Positions 1 through 64,000 are shown, numbered from the stretch's first letter. The stretch: 64,000 nucleotides of DNA from Seison nebaliae (GCA_023231475.1 JALJEE010002373.1:1-64000), one strand, 5' to 3'. Notes: generated by a model from the letters alone, not told the origin. A program made the numbers and translations.

Positions 1-1509
1 CGTCAATCCCACTCGATCCTTATCCAATTCTAATGAATTTTCTTTCATTTGAATTTCTTTTGCTAAATTCATTCGAGAATCTTGCAATGATCTCAAACAA
101 AATTCACCATCGCTCAACTGATTCTTCAATGCATCTATTGATTGCGTCAATGTTTGGACTTCAAATATTAAACTGTTATTTTTTTTAAATTTAGATTATA
201 GAACTTAAAAGTATGAGAAATCTAACGCTTCTTGAGCAGGATCTCGACACGACTCAATTTGTGGTCGAAATTCTCCTCGATCGTGTAATCGAGATTGTGC
301 AACCTTCAATGGAGCCTCTTTTGCTTTAATTGCAGCTCGAATATCTGCAATATTTTTCTCTTGATTTGTAATTTCTATAATTGTTTCTTGTTCGTTCTTT
401 CTCAATTTATTCAAAGCATCTTCTATTTCTTGTATACGTCGACTAACTGATTTGTCAACGGTATCTGCTTGTTGACGTAAATCTTTTGTAGTATCTGATA
501 ACATGTTGTCAATCAACTGTCTTAATTTTTCGCTGGTCATTCTTTCAGATTGAGCGGAAACTAAATGATGGTGACAATTTTCTGCCCATGACTCCGGTGT
601 TGATTGACTAAATAAGGAAAAATTGTTGAATTAACTTCAAATTCTTTTTTGAATAACTTGTCGATAAATTTAGCTGCACCCATGTAATACATATTATTCT
701 TATCTGTATTTTTACGGTTAGCTGATATTGAATCACATCTCTCTGCTTCCAATTTATTGCTCCAATCTAACTCCAAGATTTCTTTTGCTCGTTTGTTTCC
801 TCTGAAATAATTTTTTATATTAAATTATGATGATTTATTTTAACTTTTGCTGAATATCTGCTTCTTCGATGGTTCGTTTTAATAATTTTTGAATTGTATT
901 CAACAATTCTACTTCCTATAAACGATCAATTTTTTTTTTAGAATTTTCTTATTAGTGGAAAACAATAACACGAAAAAGCTGTAATTCTACTTCGTCTGTC
1001 ACATTACACACTCCATACTTGCGACGACGAGTTTCCAAATTCTCGGTAGCAATCTCTAAGGGTATGTATGTGGCATCTAATGCTAATTGTAATCGAGTTC
1101 GACTTTTCAACAGATCATCAATTTCTTGTTTCATTAAGTCGATATCGCGATGCAGTTCTTGCTTCCAAGAATTAATATCTTTCAACCTTTCCTTTAATCG
1201 TTCCGTCGACTCTTTTTGTAGTTTATTTGTCTAATTAAATGCATCACTTTTTTTAATTTATCAACTTGTTCTACTAACGATTTCAGCTGTTTGGTAAATA
1301 CATTTCTGAGTTTTTTGTCGAGCATTCTCTGACATGTTCCTTGTGGCAAAAGCAGAATAAGCGACCTCATGATTATTTTCATGCCATTCAACAGGCGTAT
1401 ATTTCGATGTACGAAATCCCATAGTTGATATTCCAGTTCCAATTCCATTATCACCTATAAGTGATGGATTGAAATTTTCTTGTATAGAATTCATTTTAAT
1501 CGTTTGCAT
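1..1509 (-). CDS. TEKT4: Tektin (tektin-4-like), 6 visible exons, 3' end runs off the window
   Basis: N-terminal GFRTSKYTPVEWHENN and tektin signature variant RPQIESCRD (consensus RPNVELCRD). Coiled-coil ORFs join in frame through five GTT..AG introns, e.g. AEI^TNKLQKESTERL. Confidence 0.88.
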
Positions 1510-1621
1510 AATTCCAGAAAGATTGTTCACCAAATAATTCCTAAAAGTATTTAAGTAATATTATTTAAAATTCTTTAAAGAAAGAAATTGTTTCTAGTTT
1601 TGTTTGTTCTTTTACGATTAC

Positions 1622-1636
1622 GTTGCCCATGGTAAT
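1622..1636. promoter_or_regulatory. RFX X-box-like element upstream of tektin
   Basis: GTTGCC-CAT-GGTAAT, an imperfect X-box palindrome about 110 bp upstream of the tektin ATG. Confidence 0.65.
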
Positions 1637-1912
1637 ATAAACTTAAATAATTCCCATAGAAACTATTTTAGAAATAAATAAACATATAAATGGGACACAA
1701 TTTCTATTGGACTTAATATTATTAAGAACTGCCTTGTAAATATGCCGTTATTAAGTTAATAACGAATTTATTTTACTGCCATTATATTTTCATTATTTTA
1801 CCGCATCGAATTCTCCCAGCTATCCAATGATAATTAGCGTTCTTCATGGCATAAGGATATCATTAAAACATTCAAAGATTAAATTTTTCCTACAAACCAT
1901 ATTTTTTCTATA

Positions 1913-1957
1913 ACCGTAAACTGGGGCAATGTGGGAATCGGGGGCAAAATAGGAGAC
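1913..1957. mobile_element. Possible DNA-transposon terminal sequence remnant
   Basis: GC-rich ACCGTAAACTGGGGCAA...GGGGCAA island with an internal direct repeat in AT-rich DNA. It resembles DNA-transposon termini, but no partner end is seen. Confidence 0.3.
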
Positions 1958-2214
1958 AAAAAAATTCCCAGCTTAAAATAGTGAGTTTTTATATGTTAAC
2001 TATTACAATTTTCTAAGGTAATCTGCATGATCATTCGGAAGGATTTAAAAGTAGTTTTCTCATATTTAAAAAAAAAAGGCCTTTTTTACGTCATACAAAA
2101 TTAGGAATAGAAAAGCTCATTTTTTTTAGAAAAAAAATCTTGGTTGAGAATGAACATTAATTTTGATTATCAATAATCTTTTTTAATATCAAGGATCATG
2201 TAACCAATATATTT

Positions 2215-2930
2215 TTGAACCTTATGGTCGATTTTCAATCTTGTCAACTGTGGCACTAACCCCCTTCTTGTCACTCTCCATTCGGCTATAAGTATTGCCA
2301 AGGAAATGAAACTCTTCTTACATCTTCTCTTCCTTGATGTTCAAATGCATTCGATTCCGTCAACATTTCGTATGCTTTTGATTACCTGGTACGTCAACAC
2401 GTCCCATACTCTATCCTCAAATTTCTTGTTCATCTCTCCTGCAATTCCCCTGGATGTGTTTTCACGGTGATAGCACCAGTACTCATTTTCAAATTAATTC
2501 CGGTACAATCCTAGGTCCCTGGTTATTTTGACTGGCTATTGACGACGTCCTCCGCGAACTTAACGAAGGTAATAGAATCGCCAATGGGGATTTCTTATTT
2601 CCACATGTTATTGCATATGCTGACGATTTCGTGATTATGCATCGCTTGAAGAAATCCTATCTACATACATCTCGTCTTCTTGCTGAAAGAGGGATTGCTA
2701 TTAACGAATTCAAATGTTGGTTGCTCTCGACTGGTAATTGGTCGTTCTCGAACATTCCTCTTGCTTCTTCTACTATCTACCTAGGCTAGCTGATCGATAT
2801 GCGGTCGGTTTCCTCATCCGCTCTCGATCGTATCGAAATACATTCCACAGGGCTTTTTTCTCATTCTCTCCTAAATCTAAATTCGTCTTTCACTATTCAG
2901 GAGTCTAGTGCATTCTTTGGAGACCATCTA
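2215..2930 (+). mobile_element. Degenerate non-LTR retrotransposon reverse transcriptase fragment
   Basis: Frameshifted LFLDV/NAFDSVN, then GTILGPWLF*LAIDDVLRELN...HVIAYADDFVI (YADD core). Contains stops and frameshifts. Confidence 0.85.
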
Positions 2931-3478: not shown

Positions 3479-6139
3479 ATGGCTGAAATAAGTGCATCAA
3501 TAGAAGAAACCAAGTTGGAATATATTTATATAATGATATGATCTTTCAAATTTACTAATTTTATATTTAATTCTTGCAGTAAATTAAGAAAAGAATTAGG
3601 ATTGGCACCTTTGGAAGTTGATGAAACGAATAATAAGAATGAGAAAGGAGAAGAAAAATATAAAGAGTCATTACCGAAAGATGATCTACATGCTCCAGCT
3701 ATCAATATAGGAGAAGTGAAACGGTCAGAAGAATTACGTCGTAAATTGGATGAAAAAAAAGAAAAGAGGAAATTAGAAGATCACTTTAAACAAAAATCAA
3801 AAGTGAAGGAAGAAGGTTTTCCTTAGTCTCCTTTTTCCTCAAACCAAAATTGATTTGATATATTTGTTTAGATTTGAGTATAAAAGATTGGATAAAATTT
3901 ATTGGAAGAGATCAGAAACCGAAAGAAATTGAAAAGAAGAAAAAATGTCGAAAATATGAATCGTCGAATCTGTCAGGATTACAAATCGATCATAAACTTG
4001 ATTCATTCGTTAAAGATGGAAAAGAAACGGTTTTAACTTTGAAGGATTCGAATATTTTAGATAATGAAGATGATATTTTGGTGGATATGCAATTGAAAGA
4101 AGAGGAATTGATAAAGGAAAGACAAAAGAAGGATAATGCAATTATTGGATCGTTCACTTCTTATGGAGAATTGGCTGAACGATATGATCCTTCTACAGGT
4201 CAAATTAAAGACAAACCAATTCTCTCCCAATATGAATCGGGAAATGACGAGAAATTTTCCATAGGAGAAAATGGGAAAATTAAAATCGATAATTCTTTGA
4301 TAGAAACGAAAGAAATTGATTATCCAACTGAAACATTGGGAACTGAAATTGGCCGATCACTCGATGGTGGAATAACAGCTCTCCTACAAACGGGACGAGT
4401 CAAATTGGCGAGAGAATATTATACGCAAGAAGAAATGGAACAATTTAAGAAACCGACAAAGAAAAAGAAGAATAAAAAGAAAAAAGTTTGTAGTTCTTAA
4501 TGAAATGTTGAATGAATTGACGTTTTTTATAGAAATCGATCTTAGATGGAGTTGTTAAGAATGAAATAATAGATGATGGGATAGATAGAGAACATGATAT
4601 AAAGATGGAGAAGATGAAGAAGATTAAAAATAAGCAGAAAAATCAACCAATCATTCACGAAGGTGTAGAAGATAATGTTTGGATGGAAAAAGAAAAAAAA
4701 TCGAAAAAATTAAAAAAACATAAAAATTGTGAAAAACAAAGTTGATTTTCTTTCATTCTCTTCATTAAATTTCTTTAAAATTTTTATTAGATTTAAAAGA
4801 AAAAATTAATAAAGTTATTCATGAAAATGATCGTCATAATGATTCGTCAGATAAAGAAGAAAGTAATTGGACGAAAGAATCAGCGGAAGATGAGGCTTAT
4901 GAAGAAATTCAACAAATATTTAATAAAACCATTCGATTACGTCAAATGAAGAAATTTTTAGATGTTGAAAAAGTTTATTTTAATTTCTTTGTTTCTTTTT
5001 TATATTTTGAATTTTTTGAAGATAATCGAACAAAATCCGGTGAAAGAAGAAAATGTTGATATTGTGAAAGAAGAGAATTTTGATTTTGATGGAACGGAAC
5101 AACCGATCGCTATTAATTCATTAGGAGAATATTGTAGGAATATTGGGAATAAAGAGACTTATGGAATATCAGGAAATCGAGAAGATGATCAATTATACGA
5201 AAATGATGATGGAAGTTCAGAGAATGATGATATGAATTCAGAGCAACATGAAGAAGAAGAGAATAGTGATCAAGGACAAAGTGAAGATAATGAACTGTTG
5301 GAAGAAGAGGAGAAAGCGTTAAGACAGAAATTATTTAAAAAATATCGAAGAAAAAGATCGAAGATGACAGATGGATTAAGTACAACGAGTCGAATAAAAA
5401 AAGAGAAATTGACAAGTGCCGATATTTTATTCTCAAAAAAAGAAAGAGATGAAGCAGGAATTATTGATGAAGATACTAGTCATGGTCGAGGATTATTATC
5501 AGCGTTAAAAGTTTGTTGAATTATTTTAATAAAATTGGTAGATATTTGTTTAGATGGCCGTCCATTCGGGAATGTTAGAGAAAGAGTCGTCGAAGAAGAG
5601 ACGAGAAGGTAAACTAATAACGTCTAATCGGCAAATTAATGAAAATTATAAAATAGAAGATAAAAATCGACGGTTATTTCACAATTAACTTCATTTTATT
5701 AAAAGTTTAATGAAATTTTTAGAGATAATAATGATCGACGTCGCGGACATTCTGGTCAATCGTTCAATGAAATGAAATATTATAAACCAGATTTCAAATT
5801 GGATTACGTTGATGATAATGGAAAATTTATGAATGAGAAAGAAGCATTCCGATATCTCTCCCATAAATTCCACGGGAAAGGAGCAGGTAAAAAGAAGTTG
5901 GAAATGAGAGATAATAAGATCGCATTAGAAAACGTTCATTTTTCTATTATAACAATTTCTAATTTATATCGATAATTCGTTTTCATGTTTAGAAACGATC
6001 AAAATTAGCAAATGCAGCTAATTCTAATGAAGAGAATTCAGGAAGTACGATGACGAAATTGATACAAAGACAAAAACAGTTGGAACAAGCATTTGTCGTT
6101 TTAACGTCAGCTAATCAAATGGCAACGAAAGAAGAATAA
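3479..6139 (+). CDS. SART1: U4/U6.U5 tri-snRNP-associated protein 1 (SART1/Snu66), 9 exons
   Basis: Spliced start SIEETN^[12 protein letters not shown] (HIND motif), [22 protein letters not shown], and C-terminal [14 protein letters not shown]...[20 protein letters not shown]. Eight GTT..AG introns keep the frame. Confidence 0.95.
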
Positions 6140-6178
6140 TTTTGTTAAATAAAATTTTATTTTCATTTTTGAAAAAAT

Positions 6179-7948
6179 TTAGAAATTTGTTACTGTTTCT
6201 TCATTATCTGATGAATAGTATGCAGGATTGGTGAGATTCCCATTCATTTCAACATCATTCGGTGACCAAATTAATTTGTTCTTATTATTTTTCCCATAAT
6301 CCAACGAATTTCCATTATTCAATTTCTCATCTTCGTCCATTGTTGATTCGGTTAATTCTTCATTAGAATCACTTGGAGCTAATGATGATTTTGTTAGTTC
6401 GTAAGTTACAATCGTTCCACTAACATCTCCCCAAACATTAATTGTCGTTCTTATACGATCCAACAACCAATCGACTGTTAGAATTAGTGATAATTTTTCT
6501 GTTGGTAATCCTAATGTGTTCAACACGATCAACATAGTCACCATACCAGCTTGTGGTATACCTGCCGCACCGACGGCTGCTAATGTTGAAGTCAATGCTG
6601 TTGTGATATAATCAGCTGGCGATAAATGTTTCCCATATAATTGTGCGATGAATAATGAAGCAACAGCTTCATATAAAGCAGTTCCATTCATATTAACTGT
6701 TGCTCCAATTGTTAAAACGAATCTCGATACTCTCTTGTCCACATGACAATTCTCTTCAACACATCTAATAAGAATATAAAGTTTGATGAGTTTTGAAATG
6801 ATTAGAAGAACTTGTATGTTACTGGTAATGTGGCAGAGGAGGAATCGGTTGCAAATGATGTGGCAAACGCCTCGGTACATTGTGCCATAATTCGAAATGG
6901 ATTTCTTCTCATTCTCGTTAAGAAGAATACGAATAATGGGAGAACGATTGCTGCATGGATTGTTAAAGCAGCGATTACTGTTCCCATATAGATAGCGAGT
7001 GCACGAAAAGTTTCTGAAATCGAATCAATGATCAGAACCTAATGGTGGAATGTTGTGGTTGTTTGATATTTTGATATGATGCAGATTCCATCGAATGGTT
7101 GAACAAAGAGATTTCCATGAAATAAGATTTGAAGAAAAAATGGAGAATAAGAATTTTGGGAGAAATATTTAAAAATATCGAACTTGATTTAAGATTAGGA
7201 AGAAAACACCAATGGGAGAGAACCACATCAATAAACTAACCATACGCATAATAATTCGGTTCAGAACATCGAAAAAGTCGATAACAATTTTTACTGCAGG
7301 ATCATTTCTGTCAAGCCTACTTAAAATTGTACCGAATAGAACACAAAAAGAAACAACACCTAAAATATTTGTACCATGTTGAATTTTCACATTTGCACCT
7401 ACCAACTTCCTCCTAACTAAATCGTGCGTCTCATTCCTCACATCTTCATAACCTCTTTCTATTTTATAAGAATCGAATGTTGATTCAATCACATTTGTTG
7501 GTATCATATTATATATGAGATCGAAAATTGTATCAACAGTATGAACTGTCACTTTCACTTCTTCATATGACGAACCTTTAATACTATCCGTTGCTTTCTC
7601 TCCTGGTCTGATAATCGCTACCATAATAATACCCTCAATAACTGCTAGAATTGTTGTGACACTATAATAGCCTAAAGCAATTCCACCAATCTTTCCAAAC
7701 GATCCCGCATCCATTCCAGCAATGGCTGTTATAAGACTTGAAACGATTAATGGGACGATAATCATTTGTAGCATTCTTAAAAAGATTTGACCGGGAAAAC
7801 CGAGACCATAAATCACTTCTTCATCCAGATTATATTTCCGAATTCCCAATCCAATAGCAAATCCCAGAGCTACCGCAATAATTGTTAGAATCAATAATAA
7901 TTCCTTTCTCAAATGCTTTAAAATCGTTTTCTTCGAACATCCTTTCAT
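6179..7948 (-). CDS. SLC1 family excitatory amino-acid transporter-like, 3 exons
   Basis: FPGQIFLRMLQMIIVPLIVSSL, HP1 TDSSSATLP, TM7 TVNMNGTALYEA, HP2 GAAGIPQAG, TM8 DWLLDRIRTTINVWGD. Two GTT introns. Confidence 0.95.
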
Positions 7949-21397: not shown

Positions 21398-23119
21398 ATG
21401 CCTAGTAAATGCAAAAGAGAAAAGAATCCCACGGATAAGTTGAGGAAAGTTTTGAGGAAAAAAGAATTGTTGAGAAATAAAAAGGAAAGAAATGCAGTTC
21501 GTGATCGTTCGTTATTAAGTCAGAATCCGAAGAATCTAATTACACAATTGGAGCAGATTGATAAGGTGATGTTCGATTCCAGTACTCAAATTAATTCTAA
21601 CAGTTATAATCAACGAATGAATGAAGATAAACGAAAACGTCTACTGGAATCGATTGATCGATTAATTCATTTAAAAGTTATTTTTCTTCTCATTCTTTTT
21701 CATTTATCTATTCTCTTTCGATTGTTTCAGAAAAAAGATAATGGTAAACAAAGTGAAGATTTAATTCGAATGAAAACTGAATATTTGGAATGGAGAGAAA
21801 AGTTCATTGAACATTGTAGTTCCAATTTATTTTAAATAATATATAATTTCATTTGAAACATTCAAATTTTAGAATCTGTGAAAGCTGTTCAATTGATTGA
21901 TGTGAATAATATTCCGTTACCTTCAACAGAAGAAATTTCTGATCAATCCACCACAATATCATCATCAGTGCCTTCTACCATTCCTCCATCAATAGAACAA
22001 AGAATAATTCCAGAAAGTTCTTTTTTAGTTTTTTCAATTTCATATCTAAATAAATTCATTTTATTTCTTCAGAGAATGAGATAATTGAAGTTGAAAGTTA
22101 TTTTCCAACATCGTCTCTTGTTCGACCGAAAACTGAACAACAAAGAAATTTTATGAAAGAACAACAATTATATTATCAGTCAATTATTCAAACAGAAGAA
22201 GATAAACCACTCTTCTCTTCATTTCCATTCAATACATTAGAAGAATTGATCGATCATTATCATTGGCCGACAACCGTTGAGAATGGTGTTGTTTTGAAGA
22301 ATAATCCGCCAGCACCACCACCAACTGATCATATATCATTCTTAAGCGAAGAAGAAATGTTAAGAGAATTATTGATAGAAAGTACTAAAACCGAAAATGA
22401 ATTAGGAAAGAAAGTTTCATTATTATCTTCAAATTACATTCAGTCAGACGAAGAAGATGGAGATGAAATAGAGACGAAACTAAACGATAAAAGTGGTGGA
22501 GATCGAAAAACTTTTACCGATGAACAAAAATTAATTGAAGATGCAAAACATAACGAAATGATTGTGGCGAATATCCAGACGAATAATCGAAATGTGAAAA
22601 TGGATTCAAATATCCTTCAAATGAAATACACAAACAATCCAACTGCTCCTACAAAAGATTATTCCAATCCAGTTCGTTCTCAAGAAGATCCTTTCTTATT
22701 CTATCCACAAAGACCACAATATTCTTCAACATCAAACTTACCAATATCAAGTTTCATTTTATTTCTCCACTAAAAAATATTTCAATTTGTTTAAAGATCA
22801 TAAAATCGAACCATCATCAAAAGTGATTGAAGCGAAACCGTTATTGAAACAAGTGAAAGGAGAAAATCAAAAATTTGTTCCATTACGAGTCACTTTGAGT
22901 AGTTAGTAGATGTTTATTTATTATGATCATTTAAATATTGGAATTCTTTCAGAACAACAACCAAAATTTAAAGCAACTCTTCAATCTGTTCCACCATCAA
23001 TATTGGCACCTCAGATGATTCAAAAGAATTTGTCTGAAAGAAAGAATGATGAAGAGAAAAAGAATACCGATGATATTTATAAAGATTTCCTAAAAACAAT
23101 CAATCCATTATTGAAATAA
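21398..23119 (+). CDS. WBP11: WW domain-binding protein 11-like splicing factor, 6 exons
   Basis: NPTDKLRKVLRKKELLRNKKERNAVR (Wbp11 domain), SVKAVQLIDVNNIPLP, KVIEAKP..KFVP, and C-terminal DDIYKDFLKTINPLL. Confidence 0.9.
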
Positions 23120-26682: not shown

Positions 26683-27008
26683 TCCTCAAACCCAATTTAT
26701 TAAAACTTATTTTTTTCTTGTTTCAAAAATATAATTTATTTCATTTTTATTCACATTAATTACCAATAATTCATTACATGAATAATTCCTGAATTTATCA
26801 TATGAGAAGGAGAAAATTCGAAGGATTAGATAAATGAGTAGGAGAAGAAATAAAAAAAATATTAAAAAAAATTGCTTCTGAGAAGAAAACAGTTAGGAAT
26901 ATAGAATGAAAATTATTTCAATATAGAAATGAAAAAAATAAAAAATAAATTTAAATTTCAAATTATAAGTCATTGTTCTTCATCAAAAAATTCATCAAGT
27001 TAATTTGC

Positions 27009-37288: not shown

Positions 37289-37703
37289 AGTTTTTAGGTG
37301 GCCATAAAAGAAATTCAATTAAAGAAAAAAGGATTGAAGTCTAATTCATTTTCATTTGATAGGTCTAGTTCAATTACAGTTAACTGAACTTATACTGTCC
37401 TTTCAATGACTTGAAAAATTAAAATTTGTTTAATGGGATATAACAACACAAATTTAATGTTAGTTCTCCTTCATTAAATTTATGTAATTTCTTCCAATAT
37501 ATATTTAAAATAATAAAGTTTTCAAAATAATAAAAATAATACTATTGTTGCTATATGAATAATATAACTGGAATTGTAAAATTTATCATTTTCTTAAAGT
37601 TTAATAAATAAAGAATTGTGAAAGGTAATGGAAAAACGTTTGAACAATTTTTTGATGAATGTGATTAAGTGAATAGATGAATCTTTACTAACTAATAGTC
37701 GAA

Positions 37704-43854: not shown

Positions 43855-43888
43855 AATGAACAATAATTATATAAATAAACAACTTCTG

Positions 43889-47514: not shown

Positions 47515-48519
47515 CTATACTTTCAACATTTTTCTCAGTAATGGATTAATATCGAAAATGTTAAGTTTTCTTTCAAGAAATTCGAACTCAACGTATTCAT
47601 TTACATCTTGTAGTAAAGTAGCATCATCTTTAGTATTTTCGGTCCTAGAATATTTTAATATTCAAAGATTTCAAGATTTAACGTTATTAATTAGTTGTAG
47701 CAGAAGAAAACCAACGAAAAATCGTCAAAAAATAGTCTCTCAGAGAAACAGACAACAACTGCATAATAAGGTAATGTCCAATTACTATACACAAGGTCGG
47801 GAAAGAATTCGAACAGGTCTACTATTCGATCTTTCGACAATTCATTTGTATAGAAATGTTGCACCGCTTCCGCTAAGCTCTATAAATAATCTTTATTTGA
47901 CAAATGCAAAATTGTTGAAACTAACTTGACGATCAAATGAATCAGTAATTATGTGATCCTCATACAGTCTGAAAATTCTTTTCAAATGTTGAAGACGATG
48001 GGGTAGAACTTCACAATACTTGTTTATATATTCAAACGGTGTCATATCTTCAATATTAGAAGAAGGAGTTTATAATTAATTACCTTTCCTACCAACTTTC
48101 TAATTTCTGAAGATCTATCGGTAAAGTAAATCGGCAACTTTGTAATGACGGAGCTACCCTAAGATCAACCTTATCATGTTTAAATTTCTAGTAAATATTT
48201 GGTTCTTTTGTCAAATTTTAATAAAATTTAAAAATTTACCTGTATCAATCGTATAATATCTATAGATGGATCCTCTGTTAATTTACTATACAATGGATGA
48301 ACTGACAGAACATCCCGCTAAGAATAGATAATTATGAAATAAATTAAGAGAATTCTGTCAAACATTATATGTTGCAGGTGCGGTTTTTTCATAATTAATG
48401 GAACCATAATCATCAGTTACATATACGTTATGATTTGCAAGTTTCTTTTCATTTTTGAAGGTTTCATATTTTAAATCCAACAATATATTCTTCAGTTCAT
48501 CTTGTTGATTTTGCCGCAT
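47515..48519 (-). CDS. Uncharacterised protein with a degenerate EF-hand-like C-terminal half, 6 exons (5' end uncertain; mostly missed by the ORF track)
   Basis: In-frame assembly: ...ATYN^RDVLSVHPLYSKL..IQ^KFKH..APSLQSCRFTLPIDLQKLE^NMTPFEYINKYCEVLPHRLQHLKRIF..RQ^SLAEAVQHFY..VVCFSERLFF..^..EFEFLERKLNIFDINPLLRKMLKV*. Four GTT donors and one CAG|GTAAAT donor. Confidence 0.8.
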
Positions 48520-50001: not shown

Positions 50002-53000
50002 ATGCAATATTTCGTAATCTTATTGTTTATTATACTAATCGATACGGGACAAAGTGGTTAATATTCTTATTACACTTTTCCTTTGACTTTAATCAAATTT
50101 GTCTATAGCTATCGATTGTAGTTACGAAGATGGAGAAGATTCTTCTAAAATTAATTTAAAAATTTCGTGTTCCCTCTCAGAAGGAGCTCTGATGCAAGAT
50201 CAACAACTGACATGGCTATCAGAATATTTTCAACAGGACGAATGGAGTTAATAAATTCTTAAGCATTTACTTCATCTATACATCATTATTCATATTAGAA
50301 CAATGTGAACCTAATGTGAAATTGCAAACAAATAAATCGATCCCCGTTAAATTGAGTTTATGTTCGAATCAGGTTCGAATTACTTGCACCAATACTGCTA
50401 TGGGAATATATGAAAATGTGAAACAATATTTATCGATCTATGATAAAGATGAAATCTCTTTCAAAGTTATTCGAGGTGACCTGACATTTATCTCGTTGAA
50501 AGAATTGAAAAATATCCATGATAACGGAATCATTTCTATTGAAGATGTTATTGCGAAAAATAAAGGGATTTTTTGGAATTCAAAATTATCATATTTTAAT
50601 AACTATCAAATGGATGTGAAAACAATCGAACCATTATGGCCGCATGAATTGAACCAACTTCGACGATTCTGTTCTTATAATTATCAATTTGTTGCAGCGT
50701 TTCTCCAAACTCACATGATCGATCTGAATGGGAAATTATTGCCGAATCAAACGCAAATCTTTAAGGATTGTCGAAGTTTACAAAAACAGTATAATCTGAT
50801 ATATCCGAAAGAGATGTCGAAAGATGATATAAAGGATTTCAATGAGAAGAAAGTGGAAACTTTGTTTGAATTCGGTGCCGAAAAATGTTTCTTGCCTTAT
50901 TATACATCGGCAAGATATTTAACTCAAGTTCTAATACTCTCATCTGACGATTTAAATGAAATAAACGTTTATATCGAAAAATTTAAAACGAACAATTTAA
51001 AAATCGCATCGAGTATAAGAAATGATGCTTTAGATGTACAACAACGTCTCTGCATCAATCGACCTCCCCCATTAATCATTCAAGTTGAACAAAAATTGAA
51101 ACAATTAGAATTATTTTATCTACAAATGACGAATGAATTGCGATTATATTTCGAATCGGGTTCCCATATAAATTTCCATATCAGTGTCTTAATTCGAGGA
51201 ACAACTATGAAATATAAAAGTCGTCAATTGACAATATTACATAATGGAATGGAAAATGGTTTGATGGAAATGAAAAATCCGAAAGAATTCGTTCTACAGG
51301 TTGGTCAAATGTGGAAAATATTAGAATTTGATCGATGTTCTCCAGCATGCACCGCTACTTATCACTTACTAAATCCAAATGATATTCACTCAATTGAATG
51401 GTATGGAATCACCATCAAAGTACAAGCATCAAATGGTATTAATGATTTGGTAAATGATTATAATTTTGGAAGTATGACGGATACCGATGTAGAAAATAAA
51501 GGACTACCAACCACCGCATATTGTGACGATATTGATCGAGTAGTTATTCATTCCGGTCAGAATAAGCGTTTGTTATTTTTTGACAACGAACCAATTCACT
51601 TAACTAACACAATCGAAGAACCATGTTTGGATAGAAAACAATCCTTAGTTTGTGGTACACAGTTATTATTTTAACGAGTTTTCTAAAAAATTCCCCTTAA
51701 TAATTTAGATTTATTTTATTCGTTTGTCTTCACGATAGTTCATTATTTTGCGAATGTAATGCAAAAAAAACGGATAATGAAGAAATATGGAAAAATATCA
51801 AGATTAAGGGATTAATTGCTGAACCTGAAGAATTCTTGACGGAATTATCTGCTAATTCAATAGCTGAAGAAGGAAGAGTTTATTTGAATGAAATCGCAAA
51901 AGAATTCCGATTGTTATGTGTTCAACAAAAATTGAATTTAAACAAAAATTGTACAAATGCAGCATCAGAGAAGACAATTAACCATTTCTATGAAATAAAA
52001 GTACCGAAAGTTTCGGTGAAATATACTATTATTGGAGGAGATGTTCAGTGGTGGAAGATCGATGGGAAAATTAAAGAGAACTATTTATTAATCGATTATA
52101 GTGGTGATGATATCCCATCAAATATTCACATACGGATGGTCGATCTGGGGACGAATTCAATAATTTTAAATGATACATCGATTGAATTAGAAGAATATAA
52201 ACAACGAAATCAGCAACTTTATACATCGATATCGTTCACTAACAAATTTCCGATTGACTTGTTCGGATCGCAATTTATCAAACGATTTAACTTATTTGTA
52301 AAATTAACAAAAGAATCGAATTATGTCAAATTCATTAAAGTTAATTAAATTTCCATTGGAAATCATAAAATTTCCTTTACCATTTTTTAGATATTCAATA
52401 TCGTTAATGAATTAGATAATAAGATTGATTCGGTAAAATTATTTTGTGAGAATTGTCATAACCGCAATCCAAATTATTGGATTTATGACACTCTAACGTT
52501 TTTTGATGAGTTTCCAACTCAAAGTGTTTCACGAAAACAACTCACAGATTTGGAAGAGAAAAACGAAAGGAAGATGTTAATCAACATTGAAATTAAAACC
52601 CAACCGACAAGTATTATTGAGAAATATATGAAAATAATAGTTTCCGATAAAAATAATGGAAATTTAAACACATTTTATTCATCAGCATTGAATAGTGACG
52701 AGAATTATATGGTACTGAATTTGGATAATATAAATGAACTTAATGTTGAAGTGGGTAATGATGATGGATCGTATGATAATTTATTATTGAAATTAACTGA
52801 TAAATTCACTTATCTGAAACAAATGTTGGATTTTCAAGATCACTCACCAAACTGTCAATGTGAAAGTTTCATGCGGGAAATAATTCAATTGAAATATTAT
52901 TATTATATTTGCTGTCAATGTTATGGAGATAACTATGGAAACGGTTTAATTTATGAAGCAATAATTGGAAAAATAGACAATAATATTATTGACAATAAAT

Positions 53001-56000
53001 TGACCGTGTTATATAAAGGAATAAAATCATGTTTCCGTGTCTTTGTTCCGTTAGTTGAGAATGCTGAAAATGGAATCTTCGAAATTTTGGTTAACATCAA
53101 ATATTTATATGTAGATGAATATGTTGGGAGGAAGTTGAAAACGGAACCGAGAATTTTATTGCAGAAATATAAAGAATATTCTTCATTACGATTCTTCCAA
53201 TATCTGAATGAATATGGATCATTCCAATTATCTCCATTCAAAGGAAATGTTCATGATGTGTCATTATTTTTATTTTACAAAGAATTATACAAATTAATTT
53301 CTGCTAATCATAAGGACGTTCCATCTTTTCTCATATATCAGATAAAATATGAGAATGAACAGAAATCTGTAGAAGATTTTTTACGAAAATCAATTTATTA
53401 TAATTTGGGAAAGTTTATTGAATTTAGTGAAATTCCAACGAACTCATTAACAATCAAATTTCCTACAAATTTTATTTTCAACGGAATCTATCAGTTATTG
53501 AATGAAATTCAAGTTCTTTTGTTGTTGTTATTTTCCCTTAAATTTTTATTTTTTTAGTCTCTGACTTTCAATTGGAATATTGACGATTTAGATTCGATTC
53601 AATATCTAACGAATAAATTAATAAAAACTAAATTTCGTCGTCAATTTGTTTCTCATTATAAAATATTAATCCGAATATTATATCTGGTACACAATATGAT
53701 TCTGATGAAATTGAATGATAAGAATTTCGATTATCTTTCCATTGTCAATTCGAAGAAATCAAACGACTGCATTGAAGGAACTGTTGGATATGAAACGAGA
53801 AGATTAAATGAGTTATTACAAATGAGTGATACGAATTATTCGAAATTAATTTTCGATCAATTAACCACTTCTCCGTTGAAGAAAAGTTTAACAAATCAAA
53901 TTCTTCAATCTAATGAACAATTGAAATCATTTGCAATCTCAGAATTCCAAAGTCGAATTACATCATTCGTTGATTATATTATTGTTTCAGCTATTGATAA
54001 TGAAAAACGATTAGTAACATTATCTCCATTAGATGATGGACGTTTATTAGAATTGCAATATGATGATTTTTTTGCGAATGATGAAATTAGTTTCGACATC
54101 GGATTATTGACAGCTTATCATACTCGATTACCAAATGTGTTAAGTCTATTTGATGAACCGATTAAGCACATGGTGTTAGAACCAGAAAATGAGATTCCTG
54201 ATAAATTGAAGGATAAAATGAATTTTGAAATAAATTCGATTGCGCTAAATAATTTGAAGAGAAATGGCATTATCCGTTTAAGAGAGAATGGAATAAGTGA
54301 ATCGAACAAAAATTACATTGTTTCAAGTAAAGAAGTTGATGAGAATGAATTAAATGATTATGAAATTAATTCGAAATTGAAATTCATTAGTATTCATGAT
54401 TCTGAAGAACCTTCAACAATTATTGAACTTTCAACCATCAGCGACAACATTCTCATTCATTTGACAAGTCAATTGCCAAAGGATAAACATGAACAGAAGA
54501 TAAAGAACTTAATTCAATCCAAAATTGTTGTGATACCTAATTTCAATATGTTTCATCGACACATTCTCCGAATCGACGAACTGACGAATAAAAATCAGTT
54601 GGTCAACGAAGAGAATGCTTATCTGTTTCTTAATATTGAGTTAATTGGATATCATGTCAATGAACAGTTTATGAAGGAGAACTATCCGGAAACTTTAGTC
54701 GAAAGCAGTTTTGAGAGTCGAAAACATTATTGTTTCCTCCATAAAGACACAACAGTAAATATGAAGAAGAAAAACTTTACGATCGACATATTAATAAGTG
54801 ATAATGAAGAATTCGATGGGAGTAAAACATATTCGCTGAAAAATGGGAAATCGGAAGATATGGATGAAACAATATTAGAGAATTTTAATCTGAAACGAAT
54901 AACTCCTATGACTCGTAAAGGAGCAGCATTGACATTCTTTGAAATAAGAAAATTGAATGATTCAATTTACGAAGAAATCGATCATATGGATATTGTTATG
55001 GAAATAAGTGTTAGCTTAATTTCCTGTATCTATTTCGATTCGATAGAGAAGAAATGGAAAGGAAATGGTTGTACAATTGATGGAAATACGAACGTTTTGT
55101 CTTCAATTCAATGTAATTGTAATCACTTAACACCGTTTAGTGCTAAAGTTCGTTCTATCGATTTATCAATCAACTTCGATACAATAACCAGAATCGATGT
55201 CAGTGAGAATATCGTTCCATTATTTATTGTTTTATTAGTTTTCATTAGTCTAATGGTTTGTTGTATTTGTGTGAGAATATTCTTCAAAGAGATATCTCAC
55301 AAATATTTGATTTCTGTGGGAGAACGTTCAGGTTCCTTCAAATATGAGATATCTATTCACACTGGTTGGTTAACATCCGGTACGACGAGTTGTGTTGGTA
55401 TGAAATTACATGGCACAAAAGGAAGTAGTGTAAGAACTGCATTGAAAGCACCGGTACCATCGAATGATATCAAATTCAAACCATCTAAACATTTATTCCA
55501 ACGAGGTTGTGAAAATAATTTCTTGTTTTCATGTAACGACGATCTCGGTCATTTAACATCAATAAGTTTATGGCATAATGCTGCTGGTAATAGACCGTAT
55601 TGGTTCATTCGTTCATTAATCGTAAAAGATATACAAAATGATTCGATTTATCTAACTTGTCCCAATGATTGGTTAATTGTCGATCCTTTAGAAAGGAAAT
55701 CTTCTTTGACATCAACAACATCATCGTCTTCATCAGTGGGAAAGATGGAATTAAATAATCTTCATCTTAATTTCCAATTATTTCAAATTGACAATATGGA
55801 AGATTTGGACGGAATTGAGAAAAGACAATTGAAAAATTTAAACAACATTTTCTTATCCAATTCTTTCATCGATTATAATTTATGGATTAATCTAATTTTT
55901 CATCGAATTATCGAACCGATTTCACAACTTTCCAAAATCTTCATTTTTCATACGACATTCTTCTTCATTCTCTTGTTTGCATTAATCAATTATGTCATAT

Positions 56001-59000
56001 TTAATGACGAACATGAATTACATGTCAATAATTCGAAGATTGGAGGAGTTTTAGGTTCCGTTGAGATTATTGCAGCACTCATTACAGCTGTCATGGGTTC
56101 CATTATACATTTATTACTAACTCTCCTCATTCGTTACGTGACGTTGAAAGAAAGGAGACCAACTTATTTATTTGCAAAAAAACAAAAAAAAGATTTGAAG
56201 ACACTTCAACTCGACAATAGTTCAAATCAAAACTTTGATAGTTCGCGCCAAACTTCCGCTAAAACTACTGTCGCCATCAATGTCAATAGTACAGCAGTGT
56301 TAAAGAAGAGTTTCAAGACAATCAAACGAACTGAATGTAAAAGGAAATTGAGTTTTGGTTCGATGTCAAACGATACGACGTATACCGATTTGTTGAACAG
56401 TATTCAACCCAAATTATTTACAGTTGAAGAAGATGCTCCATCAAATAATAAAAAGAAGTCGATAACATCAGTTAATCGGATAACAAAAAATAAGAATCTT
56501 CCTAAACGGAGACAGACATCAATCATTTCTATTGATACTTCGATCGAAGAGGATACTATTCCACAAATGAAAGAAAATCATCAAATCTTAATAGGACAAC
56601 AATCGACGGATAACGACAATTTTACGGAAAGTCATCAGAAAAAATTTAAAATAATATTTGGAATTACTTATTCTTTGCTACTCTCCTTAATGATATTCGC
56701 TTCGATTCTTATCATTTATTATGGATGGACGTTTCAAGTTGCTGTTACATTCCAATGGTTTGTGACATGTGCATTCTCTTTAATTTTCTCTTTCACACTT
56801 GTGGAACCAGTGAAGTGTTGGATTGTTTACAAAGTACATCGATTGTATTCCTTAAAGAATTCGAGAAGATTCTTTAATAAATATCTACTTCTTCATGATG
56901 TGGATAAGGAGGAAAAAAAAGAATTGATTGATGACACTACTTCATTCCATTCGACAATGAAATCGATTTTATTGAATACAAAAAAATTGAATGTTACAAC
57001 TAATAATTATCCATCACCTCTCAATCCACAATATAAACATAATGGAATATATCACTTGAAATATCATGATGATAATGTTCTTTTAAGATATCGACCATTA
57101 GCCGGTTATGGTTACGAGAAGATCTGTCAAATTACGGCTGCCTATTTCCGTATAAAGGAAACTTTATTCGTCTTAATTCCAATATTCTTTTGCGTCATTC
57201 TCTCTTTCATTCTCTTCTCACCAATTGGACATATTAAGGAGAATAATCATTTGATTCAACATTTCCATAAATCTTCAATTCTTCTATCATCATCGATGAA
57301 TAATATGGATTCTTCATTAATTGTTCATGAATTCAACAAATATTATTTCAAAATGATCAAATATTATGATAATACGCAACATCAATTAAGTCATTTATTA
57401 CAATTCCAACAATTTTACCAACAACAAATCGAAATTATTTATGAGGAATCTCCATCAATTCACTTCAATGATTTCGAATCAATTCTCAATTTAACTTTAG
57501 TGAATAATTGTAGATCGTTCGAGAAAGTTTGTAAGGAGATGAAGGAGAATTCAAAAAAAAATTATTGGAATCGTATTGATCATCTTATTAATACCGAAAA
57601 ATATTTCAAAAAATTTGATGAATGTAAAATTGTTTATCAAGAAGATTTCCGTCATTTGAATTGTAATTATGAGAAGATTCCAGTTGGACCACAAATCTTA
57701 CTAAAAGGTTTCGATTCGAAATTTGTGGAATATATTCAACAAATATTACAATCGAATTCGGATAATGCGTTAAATTTCATCAACTCCATCAACATCAAAC
57801 AATCATTCATCCAACCAGAACAAATCGATAATAAACCCAGTCAACTTTATCTTTTAACAACGAACTTTAATCGGGAGAATACTTATTTGAAATCAAATAT
57901 CTTCAAAAGTAGTTTTCAAATTAATTCTTTCGAATATGCCACTCCATTTCAATATGGTGCTTTACTTATTTCAATTGCCTTAATTTCAATCATCATTCTC
58001 ACCATGTATTTCTTAATACGATATCGACAATTTCACAACAAACGGTTTGAGAGAAATGCGAAGGTAAACTCTAATTTTAAATTTCCACATAAACCACCAT
58101 TGATATTTGGTGTATTTGGAATCCTCATTATCCTTTTGATCAATTTAATTTTATTAGTCATCCAGACAATTTTCCATATTTACGTTGAAATGAAACGGAT
58201 AAACATTCATTCTAGCAAAGACAATCTGCAAATCATAGAAGAATACTCTTCATTAGGTAATTTCATGGAAGCGATCCATTACATAATTGCAATTATTCAA
58301 TTTACTTTAACAATAGCACTCATATATATTTTCATGCAATTAATCAATTTTTACAGGAATATCTTTGTAATTTATCGATTGGCAACTCTTGAAATTAGTT
58401 TGACATTCGTTCGATATGTCATTGGTATGATTGCTTTCAGTTCGGTGATTTATTTAATGAATAAAAAGAATTTTAACGTTAAATTAAATTTTATTCACTT
58501 ACTTCACACTTCTTTTTCAACTTCCTTTTCAGATATCAGATTATACTTATTTTATCACAATATTCTGCAGTATTGGCAATCGCCGATTCATGAATGAAAT
58601 TTTTAAGAAGAATGATAATATTTGTAATTTCATTGTCGTTGTATGGTATATATTCTGCCTTCTCATTGTTCGATCGTTCTTGATAAGCGTCTACCAATTT
58701 TATTTGAAAACTATTCGTCTTCAAAAATTCAAATTATCAACAACAAATGGATTAACCATTTCTGAACGTCAATCGATGGCTGATATTTACGTTTACGATC
58801 TAATTTTATTCATAAAAGATATTATCGGTTGGCACAACATTGAATCGATCGAGAAAACGAAATCGAGCAACAATAAAAAATCCATTTTAATAAAAAACTT
58901 TCAACATAAAACTAAAGATAATGTTATTATTCCACGTTATGAAACAAAACAACAAAATCAAGATAATGTTATTAACTTTTTAAATATTTAAATTTTAATT

Positions 59001-59540
59001 AATTAAAATTAATAGAAAATGAGAAAAGTCCGCTTCCCCAGAGATATTACGTCGGCGAGTACAATTCGTTCACATTCGTCTTCTGTTATTTATGAAGAAC
59101 CGAATGAATCTCATCTTCAAGAAATTTTCGATGGAATAGTTGATCGTTGTTGGAAAGAACAGGTCAAACAGAAAGATACTTATTCAAACAATGACAATAT
59201 TTTGTATGATCAATTGGAGATGATCAATCTGTTGAAAATGAAAAAAAATATTCGTCGTCCATCCGTAACATCTATCAAGTCGACATCATCGAACGATTCG
59301 AATATTTCGAGTATTTCTATGTATCTCAATAATCCGAATAGAAAACCTTCCAAAATGCAATTAACGAATAACTCAAAAATACCCAAATTGTTAGCTAGAA
59401 AACGTTCGGGAAGAATTCGACCCAATTCTTTTGGGTCAGAAGAATCCTTCCGTCAGAAGACTACACTTCCACCACATTTGAATAGAGGTCGATCGGAAAG
59501 TAGAAAACGAAGTCAAATTCCTGTGTATAAGGCTCATTGA
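50002..59540 (+). CDS. Polycystin-1-like (PKD1/PKD1L family) protein, 8 exons, about 3,000 aa
   Basis: Signal peptide MQYFVILLFIILIDTGQS, long ectodomain, GPS motif (CIYFD..WKGNGC..CNCNHLTPF), TM1, PLAT domain (YEISIHTGW..FQRGCENNF..LWHNAAGNRPYWF), multiple further TMs. Seven GTT introns keep the frame. Confidence 0.9.
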
Positions 59541-61503: not shown

Positions 61504-61849
61504 ATATCAGTCAATTCATAAATTTTAAATGTCATCGTTTTATATTGAGCAAAATTATTTAATTGTCGACTCTTTTCGAGAAAGTTTTCATAAAAGTTTT
61601 CATTTATATCTCCTTATTAAAATATTAAAACGAATAATTCTTTGTCGTGGCAGTAAATTGAAGAGGATGAATTGGAAAGAAATGACACGTTTTATTGAAT
61701 TTTTATTACAGTTTTAATTGAACGAATTTGTAATGATTGAAATACTTAAGAATTTTATATAAATATCGAAGTGTCTTTATCTTCTAAAAATTACATTTCC
61801 ATCTCGTTCATTATTCAGCGTCATATAATACTAATTTGTTGAGAGTAAA

Positions 61850-62847
61850 ATGAATTATCTGGTACTTCTCTTATTTATTGTTGCTTCAGGTTAATCAAAT
61901 GATAATATTATGGATCATTATCTTTATTCGTTACTAGTGTATGGACAAAGCAAATTCAGCATAAACAAACCAGTTCCAATTGAACTTCTTTTACTAAATT
62001 TATTCATGAAAAACTCTTTTTTTTAAGTTATGTCAAAAATTACCTTCTTTGCCATCGGGCGTCTATAAAATAAGTTATCGACGAGTATCTTATCCGAAGA
62101 TTGATCAAAACCCAAAAATTTACAGAACTGGCTCAACAATTTCCTTCAGTTGTTCTCAAGGTAAGTTCTTATTGAAAAATATAAATAAATTATTTCTTAT
62201 TCTTTAGGTGCTGGTGCGGCTAAATGTGGATCAGACGGTTCATGGGCTCTCTCAGGTCCTTGTAGTGGAGGTGCTTCTTCAGGAGGTGGTTCCGTTCGTG
62301 CAATGATGGTCCCAAGTCAACCAAGACAATCATCTTGTAGTTGTCCATGTGGTGGTGGTGGTGGTGGAGGTGCTGGTGCCGGACGATCAATGATGCAAGT
62401 TTCTGGTGGTAGTAATAGCAATAGTGGAAGTTATTCATAAAATAAATACCTTTTCGATACTTAAAATTTTACTGAATTAATTTAGATCTGGTTCCCGGAA
62501 AAATGTACAGAGTTGTTTTCAACGGTTTTTAGTTTTTTTATGTTTCTTTTTTACAGAAATTGTTTTTTTTTTTAAGGTAGAGTTTGTCTAATGAAATGTT
62601 AGGAAATTATGTTTAATTTTAAAAATTAATTATAAGAATAAAAGTTAACGGATATTCGGGCGGATCGGCAACTCAAGCTAAGTCTGATGAAACGACCACC
62701 ATAAGCGAAACAACAGAAACACCATCCGATCTTGGCGAGGACGATGCTTCAAAATCGACTGGTGGAGGTACTGGTCCTACAACTGAAAGTCAAACAGGAA
62801 GTACTTTGGCTGAATCAACTCCAACTACACTTTTCGATTCATCATAA
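61850..62847 (+). CDS. Small secreted protein with one Sushi/CCP-like domain and a Gly/Ser/Thr-rich tail, 6-7 exons (not in the ORF track)
   Basis: MNYLVLLLFIVAS^VYGQ...^LCQKLPSLPSG...YRTGSTISFSCSQ^GAGAAKCGSDGSWALSGPC (4 Cys plus Trp in CCP spacing), then CSCPC-poly-Gly and an S/T/E-rich last exon. Confidence 0.75.
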
Positions 62848-63123
62848 ACAAAACAACAATTTAAACATTCTACTATTAATATTTTAATACATTTTCTTTA
62901 ATCCAATAAATTAAGATTATCAAAAGATTATTCATTTAACAGAATTTCATTGACTTCACAAAGCACATTAGGGAAATGTGGAAGTAGATAGAATGTAGAA
63001 ATTGTTTCTTCAAATTTTCCTCATAATAATTTATTAGATGTTCTCTTCTCCATTAAGAAACTGAATAGTATGTCTAATATAAATTAATGAATAAAAATAT
63101 GAAATGAACATTTAGCGTAAACA

Positions 63124-63137
63124 GTTGCTATAGCAAC
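63124..63137. promoter_or_regulatory. Perfect palindromic RFX X-box upstream of IQCK
   Basis: GTTGCTATAGCAAC, about 115 bp upstream of the ATG at 63252. Confidence 0.85.
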
Positions 63138-63251
63138 GAACGAGCAAACGAAAGAAAATGCCTGTAATGAACTTTCGTTTTAATGATGTTTGGAGAACAA
63201 TCAGTGAAGGTTCCCATTATTTAAAAAATTGTAATTCAAATAAATTAGACA

Positions 63252-64000
63252 ATGGAAACAATTGAAGGGGAAGGAAATATTATAGATTTTGAACCAGAAA
63301 AACATTCTCCTATTTTTATTGGATATAATTTCAGTTTGGAGGATGATTCGGAATACACAATTCAAGTTCATATTACTAAAAATATTTGATGACTGTTATA
63401 TCATTATCGTAGTCGTTCGATCCTTCAATATCACATCCGGCTTGTATTGGTCATGCGCTATTGCCGATAGCTGAAGAAGGTGTTTCAAATAACCAACCAC
63501 CAACCGATGATAATTGTTATCTTCTACTTATTTTTCTGTTAATTCAATATTCTCATTGGATCAGTGGAGCATCAAAATCATGATAAAATTTTACGAGATA
63601 TTCTAACGGACGGTCTTAGCGAAATACTTTATATTGCTGATAGTCATTTGGCATTTACAGTTAATTGTTGATTTTTTTATTTTTCATTCAATTACGTTCA
63701 GCGAAAACATACCGTCTTCCGTGCTTTAGAATTTTTAAGCGAATACTTATACAAGTTGGACATTTCTTTTTTAAATTATTATATAACATTGAGAATTGAT
63801 ACCAGTAATAATCCATTTAAACAACATGAACGTCCCGAATACGTCAACTTATTAGACATTCCTTTTGTCGTAGAATTTCTGAAAAATAAGTTCGATTATT
63901 TTTAATAGTAAGAATTGATTGTACTTGTTATTGATAGAGCATTACCAGCACTTCCGTTACATTTAACATTGGATGAACATTTGGCAGCGATTATTATTCA
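63252..64000 (+). CDS. IQCK: IQ domain-containing protein K-like, 6 visible exons, truncated by the window end
   Basis: Spliced RKHTVFRALEFLSEYLYN^NNP...LLDIPFVVEFLKN..LPALPLHLTLDEHLAAIII(Q). Five GTT introns. Confidence 0.85.

What the first reader, a model, noticed from the sequence alone, without database searches (positions are those of the whole stretch)
170..63940. Near-universal GUU 5' splice sites: candidate rewired splice-donor recognition
Seen in sequence: of about 70 introns I could frame-check by hand, on both strands and in conserved and orphan genes, nearly all start GTT. Examples: SART1 GTTGGA 3514, GTTTTC, GTTTGT, GTTGAT, GTTTAT, GTTTGT, GTTATT, GTTCAT; tektin GTTAGT, GTTATT, GTTAAA, GTTATT, GTTAGA; all 7 PKD1-like and all 5 IQCK introns. 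Positions +4 to +6 vary freely and +5G is a minority. In WBP11 intron 2 the adjacent GTA donor would create a stop, while the GTT donor keeps the frame. Established: animal U2-type donors are GURAGU, with +3 purine pairing to U1 position 6 and +4 to +6 pairing to U1 and the U6 ACAGAGA box. Inference: a fixed +3 U with loss of +5 G implies a changed reader, such as a U1 5' arm with A opposite +3, an altered U6 ACAGAGA region, or changed U1-C/Luc7/Prp8. AT-richness alone would favour GTA as much as GTT.
Basis: partly seen in the sequence, partly recalled or inferred. Interest (0 to 1): 0.9.

Follow-up and report, generated by a model that had tools for sequence, protein, structure and literature searches.

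The report
Rotifer introns start GTT, not GTA
In this stretch of the genome of the marine rotifer Seison nebaliae, about nine in ten well-supported predicted introns begin with GTT, mostly after an exon ending in A, instead of the usual animal G|GTA or G|GTG, so its splicing machinery likely reads intron starts with a re-lettered U1 RNA, which is predicted here but not yet seen.

Summary
Confirmed. A homologue search names a window protein as Seison nebaliae. A gene model blind to donor position +3 gave GTT in 46 of 51 filtered introns and 63 of 87 unfiltered. Background is 43-46%, or 68% inside introns. All 7 donors fixed by homologues are GTT.

The modal site is (C/A)AA|GUUAGU, the canonical CAG|GUAAGU with two letters changed. 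Canonical U1 binds these sites no better than decoy GTs (AUC 0.47).

Best reading (0.5): a U1 5' arm with A at position 6, probably also U at 9, as in Entamoeba's co-evolved U1. Main rival (0.28): ordinary U1, with U5 and U6 reading the site. METTL16 is BUSCO-missing in Seison alone among 25 rotiferan genomes.

No RNA junctions and no Seison snRNA could be obtained. My searches found no animal case in print. This scan noted GTT donors earlier in protists (Bonamia), none in an animal.

The parts
173..1278 (-). Tektin (best named matches include tektin-4): five GTT introns, 1278-1231, 969-916, 844-802, 657-608, 226-173
   Evidence: Annotated protein P0121 maps to these five introns. Each donor scores best among in-frame alternatives, gap-free in 21/22, 22/22, 21/21, 18/20 and 22/22 informative homologues.
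3514..5992 (+). SART1/Snu66: eight GTT introns with donors at 3514, 3816, 4486, 4741, 4973, 5511, 5673, 5934
   Evidence: Blind model; Pfam SART-1 and a weak HIND hit. The first junction rebuilds EETNKLR as in the human chain.
6765..7183 (-). Excitatory amino-acid transporter (SDF family): GTT introns 7183-7039 (145 nt) and 6811-6765
   Evidence: P0281 mapping; gap-free in 11/11 and 10/11 homologues. The blind model had put the first donor at 7207, also GTT but wrong.
21677..22952 (+). WBP11: five GTT introns with donors at 21677, 21819, 22017, 22751, 22902
   Evidence: Pfam Wbp11; PDB 7abf_X matches exon 1. The alternative GTA at 21816 makes a stop.
26118..27494 (+). C2H2 zinc-finger gene (donors 26118, 26318, 26509) and TOMM20 (27441), all GTT
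   Evidence: Pfam zf-C2H2 and MAS20. The junction at 26509 completes a finger, [13 protein letters not shown].
32567..40085 (-). LRR gene and two genes without a Pfam family: GTT donors at 33321, 32973, 32608, 36205, 35975, 35619, 35414, 34658, 34502, 34391, 40085, 39428, 39163, 39044, 38961, 38867, 38131, 37881
   Evidence: Blind model. Most are frame-forced. No homologue check was done. Four further introns predicted in this span (31985, 35074, 34265, 34074) began GTC, GTG or GTA in the blind run and failed the filter.
50057..59015 (+). PKD1-like gene (GPS, PLAT): GTT donors at 50057, 50247, 51662, 52340, 53513, 58478, 58968
   Evidence: The first blind run chose GTC at 52325 for one acceptor; the sharper blind run chose GTT at 52340.
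63366..63937 (+).
   Evidence: Blind run at relaxed penalties. The gene name was not confirmed by Pfam.
48188..48239 (-). Exception: canonical donor CAG|GTAAAT of a 52-nt, 15% GC, frame-forced intron
   Evidence: Only in-frame GT within 35-90 nt of the acceptor; kept even under a GTT prior; -8.3 kcal/mol with canonical U1.
62161..62207 (+). Exception: canonical donor AAG|GTAAGT, probably used; in-frame GTT alternatives lie at 62149 and 62152
   Evidence: Chosen by the blind runs. A weak Sushi match (E 0.18) runs to this point; -10.6 kcal/mol with canonical U1.

Best explanation
Most well-supported predicted introns in this Seison window begin GUU, usually after an exon ending in A, and they are likely picked out by a U1 snRNA whose 5' arm carries A at position 6 (facing +3U) and probably U at position 9 (facing -1A), in the ordinary register. 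U5 loop 1 would then hold the A-rich exon end, and the unchanged U6 ACAGAGA box would add a G-U wobble at +3 and the C-G pair at +5 where present. The very short introns (median 50 nt) would supply the rest by intron definition. Shown: the donor pattern. Inferred: every snRNA contact.
For: (1) +3U in 46 of 51 filtered introns, and 7 of 7 homologue-fixed donors. (2) The modal letters are (C/A)AA|GUUAGU. -3C (15 against 8.1, p=0.011), -2A (29 against 19.4, p=0.005) and +5G (13 against 2.7) are enriched, and +4A and +6U are modal but not significant. The canonical register thus survives with two swaps: +3 A to U, and -1 G to A (A 31 against 19.1, G 9 against 9.1, U 6 against 15.6). (3) Duplex energy of 47 GTT donors against 1905 decoy GTs: canonical arm AUC 0.47, A6 0.52, A6+U9 0.75. 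(4) Precedent: five Entamoeba species with GUUUGU donors carry U1 ACAAAC, and Mastigamoeba has a third arm (bioRxiv 10.1101/2022.06.08.495308). (5) Full-length U1 genes with the arm ACUAAC exist in nature: 5 of 11 metagenome loci (L001, L002, L009, L011 at 138-141 bits, L005 at 85 bits), organisms unknown.
Against: No Seison U1 was seen: no genome is held and no Rfam family matches in the window. The A6+U9 arm was fitted on the same sites, so its AUC is circular, and even it binds weakly (mean -3.7 kcal/mol). A6 alone hardly helps. Two of the three GTA donors in the curated set follow AG, against 1 of 47 GTT donors (Fisher p=0.007), and they pair strongly with canonical U1, so a canonical U1 may still be present. 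In Saccharomycotina the +4 switch happened with ACUUACC invariant in all 227 genomes where U1 was found (PMC10581693). Entamoeba's donors are rigid; these are loose at +4 to +6. The -3C signal is one of many positions tested. The metagenome U1 variants could be minor copies in genomes with ordinary donors.
Confidence: 0.5

Rival explanations
1. U1 is ordinary but matters little. Donors are chosen later, by U5 loop 1 uridines pairing with the A-rich exon end and by the ordinary U6 box, whose G faces +3 and wobbles with U. Loss of METTL16 (unmethylated U6) would have pushed sites away from the GURAG class.
For: -1A, -2A and 3'-exon +1A (35 of 51 against 19.1) suit a U-rich loop. METTL16 is Missing for Seison only among 25 genomes in the BUSCO sheet of PMC12256650 (one other is Fragmented). 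C. elegans mett-10 mutants move from GURAG sites to examples such as AA//GUUGU and UG//GUUG (PMC11347140). The ordinary U6 ACAGA can pair GUU. The rare canonical AG|GUA donors fit a retained ordinary U1.
Against: METTL16 loss predicts +4U (PMC10581693), but +4U is depleted here (15 against 23.4, p=0.024) and +4A is modal. PMC10581693 also says that keeping SNRNP27K, which is Complete in Seison, allows more +4A. BUSCO misses are unreliable in Seison: 356 losses are counted, including LSm2. A single wobble is a thin basis for 90% fixation.
Confidence: 0.28
2. A protein (diverged U1-C, LUC7, a TIA-1/Nam8-type U-binder, or PRP8) reads the +3U and the U-rich intron start while the snRNAs stay canonical.
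For: Intron interiors are 46% U. TIA-1 recruits U1 to weak donors through U-rich sequence and U1-C (PMC9311317). Entamoeba's U1-C is highly diverged.
Against: The U preference is confined to +3 (92%, against 47-61% at +6 to +9), which is unlike a U-tract binder. PRP8 is BUSCO-complete. No U1-C or LUC7 sequence was examined.
Confidence: 0.13
3. Canonical U1 pairs in a shifted or bulged register, skipping the +3U, as at some human GUU sites and in protist GTTGCG classes.
For: These registers are proven in human cells (PMC4856993).
Against: Such a register needs G at +6. Seison has 0 of 51, while G is enriched at +5. Removing +3 does not raise the pair count (5.27 against 5.39).
Confidence: 0.03
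4. The pattern is a by-product of base composition or of gene-model bias.
For: GTT is 43-46% of GT in the window and 68.5% inside introns. The unfiltered blind set is only 72% GTT. No RNA junctions were seen.
Against: p=3e-4 against the harshest null; 43 of 52 GTT under an anti-GTT prior (p=0.016 against that null); all 7 homologue-fixed donors are GTT.
Confidence: 0.04
5. The introns are recent insertions of an Introner-type element that happens to start with GTT.
For: Several long genes have no intron while neighbours have many.
Against: No sequence families among the 51 introns (best local score 33, against a mean best of 32.6 for shuffles), no direct repeats of 3 or more bases, no terminal inverted repeats. 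Phases are 25/16/10.
Confidence: 0.02

Closest known systems
Entamoeba GUUUGU donors with co-evolved U1 ACAAAC (Roy and Bowser, bioRxiv 10.1101/2022.06.08.495308; parts 1-3 of 9 and passages read)
   Same: +3U is near-fixed across the genes examined, the genome is AT-rich, and canonical U1 does not match the donors.
   Different: Entamoeba is intron-poor with rigid GUUUGU (88-90%). Seison here has several introns per gene, a loose +4 to +6 with modal +4A, and lost -1G. Its U1 is unseen, and it is an animal.
AG//GU (U5-led) and //GURAG (U6 m6A-led) donor classes; METTL16 and SNRNP27K association (PMC10581693, PMC11347140; passages read)
   Same: Exon-side purines and a weak intron side; METTL16 is BUSCO-missing in Seison.
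   Different: 32 of 51 Seison donors have neither -1G nor +5G, the fixed U is at +3 rather than +4, and +4U is depleted.
Shifted and bulge +2/+3 U1 registers at human GUU donors (PMC4856993; passages read)
   Same: U at +3.
   Different: They need +6G, which is absent here (0 of 51). All validated non-canonical registers together cover about 1.5% of human sites.
GTT(T) donors of Bonamia ostreae (earlier scan notes e1-9758096, e1-9778931; unchecked AI notes)
   Same: About nine in ten introns start GTT.
   Different: A protist, with +4 mostly T by those notes; here +4 is mostly A.

Membership tests
U2-type (major) spliceosomal introns | GT...AG ends that restore the reading frame | tested here: met
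   seven junctions give gap-free homologue alignments.
U2-type (major) spliceosomal introns | Removed from RNA at these junctions | not testable with these tools
   No RNA holder was listed and the laid runs show no intron joints.
Canonical metazoan donor CAG|GURAGU | Purine at +3 | tested here: not met
   3 A, 0 G, 1 C, 47 U of 51 after one homology correction.
Canonical metazoan donor CAG|GURAGU | G enriched at -1, with -1G and +5G compensating each other | tested here: not met
   -1G 9 against 9.1 expected; 32 of 51 have neither. The compensation rule is quoted in PMC11347140.
Entamoeba-type co-evolved donor and U1 | Near-fixed +3U | tested here: met
   (one 64-kb window).
Entamoeba-type co-evolved donor and U1 | Rigid GUUUGU hexamer | tested here: not met
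   +4U 15 of 51, +5G 13 of 51; 3 of 51 start GTTTG.
Entamoeba-type co-evolved donor and U1 | U1 5' arm changed to match the donor | not testable with these tools
   No genome held; no Rfam match in the window.
Shifted or bulged U1 register donors | Canonical motif displaced by one base (G at +6) | tested here: not met
   0 of 51.
METTL16-loss (+4U) donors | METTL16 absent | tested here: inconclusive
   BUSCO Missing in a published sheet, but LSm2 is also Missing. No search of my own was possible.
METTL16-loss (+4U) donors | +4U preferred over +4A | tested here: not met
   A 24, U 15 of 51.
U12-type (minor) introns | RTATCCTT donor (motif recalled, from no call) | tested here: not met
   None of the donor pentamers listed is GTATC. 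ZMAT5 is BUSCO-missing in Seison and both acanthocephalans.
Introner-derived introns | Sequence families, target-site duplications or terminal repeats | tested here: not met

The most novel reading that the evidence does not exclude
Seison is an animal that has recoded its 5' splice signal at two letters, to AA|GUU. It has a main U1 re-lettered at both position 6 and position 9, a second canonical U1 serving a small AG|GUA class, and has lost U6 methylation by METTL16. This would be donor-U1 co-evolution in an intron-bearing metazoan, including the exon-side G-C pair that no described case has changed.
Probability: 0.25. Interest if true: 0.88.

Novelty: new variant of a known kind. Interest (0 to 1): 0.72.

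Why it matters
The U1 5' arm and the CAG|GURAGU donor are treated as fixed in animals. The described compensatory U1 changes I found are in two amoebozoan lineages, and yeasts changed +4 without changing U1. An animal with thousands of genes that switched +3 to U and dropped -1G is a natural experiment on which partner (U1, U5, U6 or a protein) sets donor identity. It also bears on how a genome-wide signal can change in a lineage that still has several introns per gene, a case the selective-loss and co-evolution models were not built on. The decisive test is cheap: a public assembly exists, and its relatives (bdelloids, monogononts, acanthocephalans) give the direction of change. In practice, gene finders and splice predictors trained on other animals will misplace donors in this lineage.

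Tried and rejected

The run search listed no RNA holder. Four runs laid on 1-20000 gave DNA-like cover from three and none from the fourth, with no intron joints. A comparison of donors in low-depth related contigs at 5440-7420 remains open.

The first gene model ran each strand alone and was far too permissive; I discarded it. Its mostly spurious introns were 48% GTT, a useful null.

No Rfam match in the window at gathering score or at E up to 1. The U1 pattern found nothing in viral contigs. In metagenomes it gave 11 loci: 5 with ACUAAC, 5 degenerate ACUCAC copies below the gathering score, and 1 (L008) with no Rfam match. Their records are not held, so the organisms stay unknown.

Branch-point motif YTRAY at -12 to -30: 18 of 51 against 19.1 in shuffles, so no signal. 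WBP11 exon 3 found no PDB match. Tektin and aldehyde-dehydrogenase searches did not resolve the lineage; one search did.

Rejected: bulged register, Introner origin, and composition alone.

No donor logo for other rotifers was found. The only passage seen says that seven bdelloid tubulin introns share G|GT (PMC3464624).
Full report
Source. The window is an AT-rich (about 31% GC), gene-dense animal sequence. A homologue search with a transporter exon returned a 100% identical protein named by its source as Seison nebaliae. This is a seisonid rotifer living on Nebalia, with a genome of about 46 Mb (PMC8351084, passages).

Checking the observation without assuming it. I wrote a two-strand gene model with codon statistics from eight long open frames, a self-trained acceptor, and a donor signal of GT only. 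It gave 59 GTT, 11 GTA, 6 GTG and 5 GTC among 81 introns. At a lower score cut there were 87 introns, 63 of them GTT. A filter that does not look at +3 kept 51, of which 46 GTT, 4 GTA and 1 GTC; it dropped 17 GTT and 19 other rows, many in retro-element remnants, GC-rich or not frame-forced. In 30 of the 51 only one in-frame GT lies 35-90 nt from the acceptor, and 28 of these are GTT. A sharper length prior gave 48 of 53, and a prior weighted against GTT still gave 43 of 52. Median length is 50 nt.

The null is not 25%. GTT is 43-44% of all GT in the window and GTA 22%; GTT is 46% in intergenic DNA and 37 of 54 inside introns.

Homologues fix seven donors independently. The annotated tektin and transporter map to seven introns, all GTT; the annotation itself may share a gene finder's bias. 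I tried every in-frame GT within 200 nt of each acceptor against 23 tektin and 11 transporter homologues. The annotated GTT scored best each time, gap-free in 18 of 20 to 22 of 22 and in 10 or 11 of 11 informative homologues. Homology corrected two blind calls: GTA 990 became GTT 969, and GTT 7207 became GTT 7183. The SART1 first junction rebuilds EETNKLR as in the human chain, and the WBP11 GTA alternative makes TAA. No RNA junction could be seen.

Anatomy of the donor (51 introns after one homology correction). +3: U 47, A 3, C 1, G 0. +4: A 24, U 15, C 9, G 3. +5: G 13 against 2.7 expected. +6: U 30, G 0. On the exon side, against phase-matched coding frequencies: -1A 31 (19.1 expected, p=6e-4), -1G 9 (9.1), -1U 6 (15.6), -2A 29 (19.4), -3C 15 (8.1, p=0.011). 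The next exon starts with A in 35 (19.1) and G in 4 (9.9). AA|GTT alone accounts for 20 of 51, and 32 of 51 have neither -1G nor +5G. The mammalian consensus is CAG|GUAAGU (PMC9311317). Human sites show a see-saw between -1G and +5G (PMC11347140), and both guanines are among the most conserved positions (PMC8283771). The modal Seison site (C/A)AA|GUUAGU keeps that register with two swaps, at -1 and +3.

Exceptions. CAG|GTAAAT at 48239 is frame-forced and survives a GTT prior. AAG|GTAAGT at 62161 is probable, with GTT alternatives nearby. AAC|GTATGT at 46920 has an A-rich body and a poor acceptor and is doubtful. Two of three GTA donors follow AG, against 1 of 47 GTT donors (p=0.007). With so few cases this only hints at a minor canonical class.

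What reads it. Duplex energies against 1905 decoy GTs give AUC 0.47 for the canonical arm, 0.52 with A at position 6 and 0.75 with A6 plus U9; simple pair counts give 0.63, 0.81 and 0.85. The variants were chosen from these data, so only the failure of the canonical arm is a clean result. A bulged or shifted register (PMC4856993) needs +6G and is rejected. An Introner origin finds no support. In Entamoeba, GUUUGU donors go with a U1 arm ACAAAC, and the ordinary U6 ACAGA can pair with the +3U (bioRxiv 10.1101/2022.06.08.495308). In yeasts the +4 switch left U1 invariant and tracked METTL16 (PMC10581693).

A scan of metagenome contigs for U1 genes with a non-U at position 6 gave 11 loci. Five carry ACUAAC in a full-length U1 above the Rfam gathering score, five are degenerate ACUCAC copies, and one has no Rfam match. 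The predicted A6 arm therefore exists in nature, but the organisms are unknown, none carries U9, and nothing ties them to Seison.

Published gene content. In the BUSCO sheet of PMC12256650 (supplement rows) Seison has PRP8, SNRNP27, ZMAT2, PRP6 and PRP31 Complete. METTL16 is Missing in Seison alone among 25 genomes. U5-40K is Missing in Seison and one bdelloid, LSm2 in Seison alone, and ZMAT5 in Seison and both acanthocephalans. Seison is counted with 356 losses, and LSm2 is a core protein (my knowledge), so these misses may be false. C. elegans METTL16 mutants shift to sites such as AA//GUUGU, which resembles Seison, but the +4U that METTL16 loss predicts is depleted here. The stored supplement was cut, so rows I could not see may bear on this.

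Mechanism. I put 0.5 on a re-lettered U1 arm, 0.28 on an ordinary U1 with U5 and U6 doing the reading, 0.13 on a protein reader, and 0.09 on bulge, artefact or Introner together. Shown: the donor pattern and the mismatch with canonical U1. Inferred: all contacts.

Novelty. Ten full-text searches listed no paper describing GTT donors in Seison, rotifers or another animal; I judged most listings by title and abstract start only. PMC8351084 has one unrelated mention of splice sites and none in its two supplements. PMC12256650 has no 'splic' or 'intron' in its main text. Single passages or short sets of passages were read in PMC10125929, PMC11347168, PMC10639083, PMC3464624 and PMC6543705, without a donor logo for this lineage. 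Subscription papers and bioRxiv supplements are not covered. From memory, unverified: bdelloids and nematodes use GTT more often than vertebrates, so Seison may be the end of a gradient. Earlier scan notes record GTT-dominant donors in the protist Bonamia and a GTTGCG class with a second U1 in an unnamed protist, and none for Seison or an animal. I rate this a new variant of a known kind, interest 0.72.

Noticed in passing
L001 309-469 (-), L002 401-561 (+), L009 343-503 (+), L011 309-469 (-), L005 401-553 (+): Full-length U1 snRNA genes whose 5' arm reads ACUAAC, in two unrelated sequence types from unnamed metagenome contigs. The first type occurs as two slightly different versions that both keep the change. 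If these are the main U1 of their hosts, further lineages with GUU donors exist.
   Followed up: partly
L003, L004, L006, L007, L010: Degenerate, in part tandem U1-like copies with ACUCAC arms, some directly followed by a copy with the canonical arm; probably pseudogenes.
   Followed up: no
window 8844-13376 (-), 16284-21023 (-), 42055-43617 (-): Long genes with no intron in the coding frame (HOOK-domain girdin-like 1510 aa, thioester/alpha-2-macroglobulin-like with an LDLa repeat about 1600 aa, methylmalonate-semialdehyde dehydrogenase 520 aa) sit beside genes with an intron every 100-300 nt.
   Followed up: no
window 7343-7891: Low-depth contigs (depth 3-5 against 15-29) about 85% alike to the transporter exon in runs X1, X2 and X5: a rarer related genome or a paralogue.
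   Followed up: no
window 2200-2900 and 15065-15970: High-copy degenerate reverse-transcriptase remnants (weak RVT_1 hits; summed depth 10-50 times background).
   Followed up: no
acceptors of the 51 curated introns: Acceptor -3 is U 34, C 12, A 4, G 1. A is raised at -24 to -18, but no YTRAY branch motif stands out over shuffles.
   Followed up: partly
window 3479-6139 and 21398-23119: Two spliceosomal proteins, SART1/Snu66 and WBP11, lie in the window. Both look ordinary in the stretches compared with human chains.
   Followed up: partly
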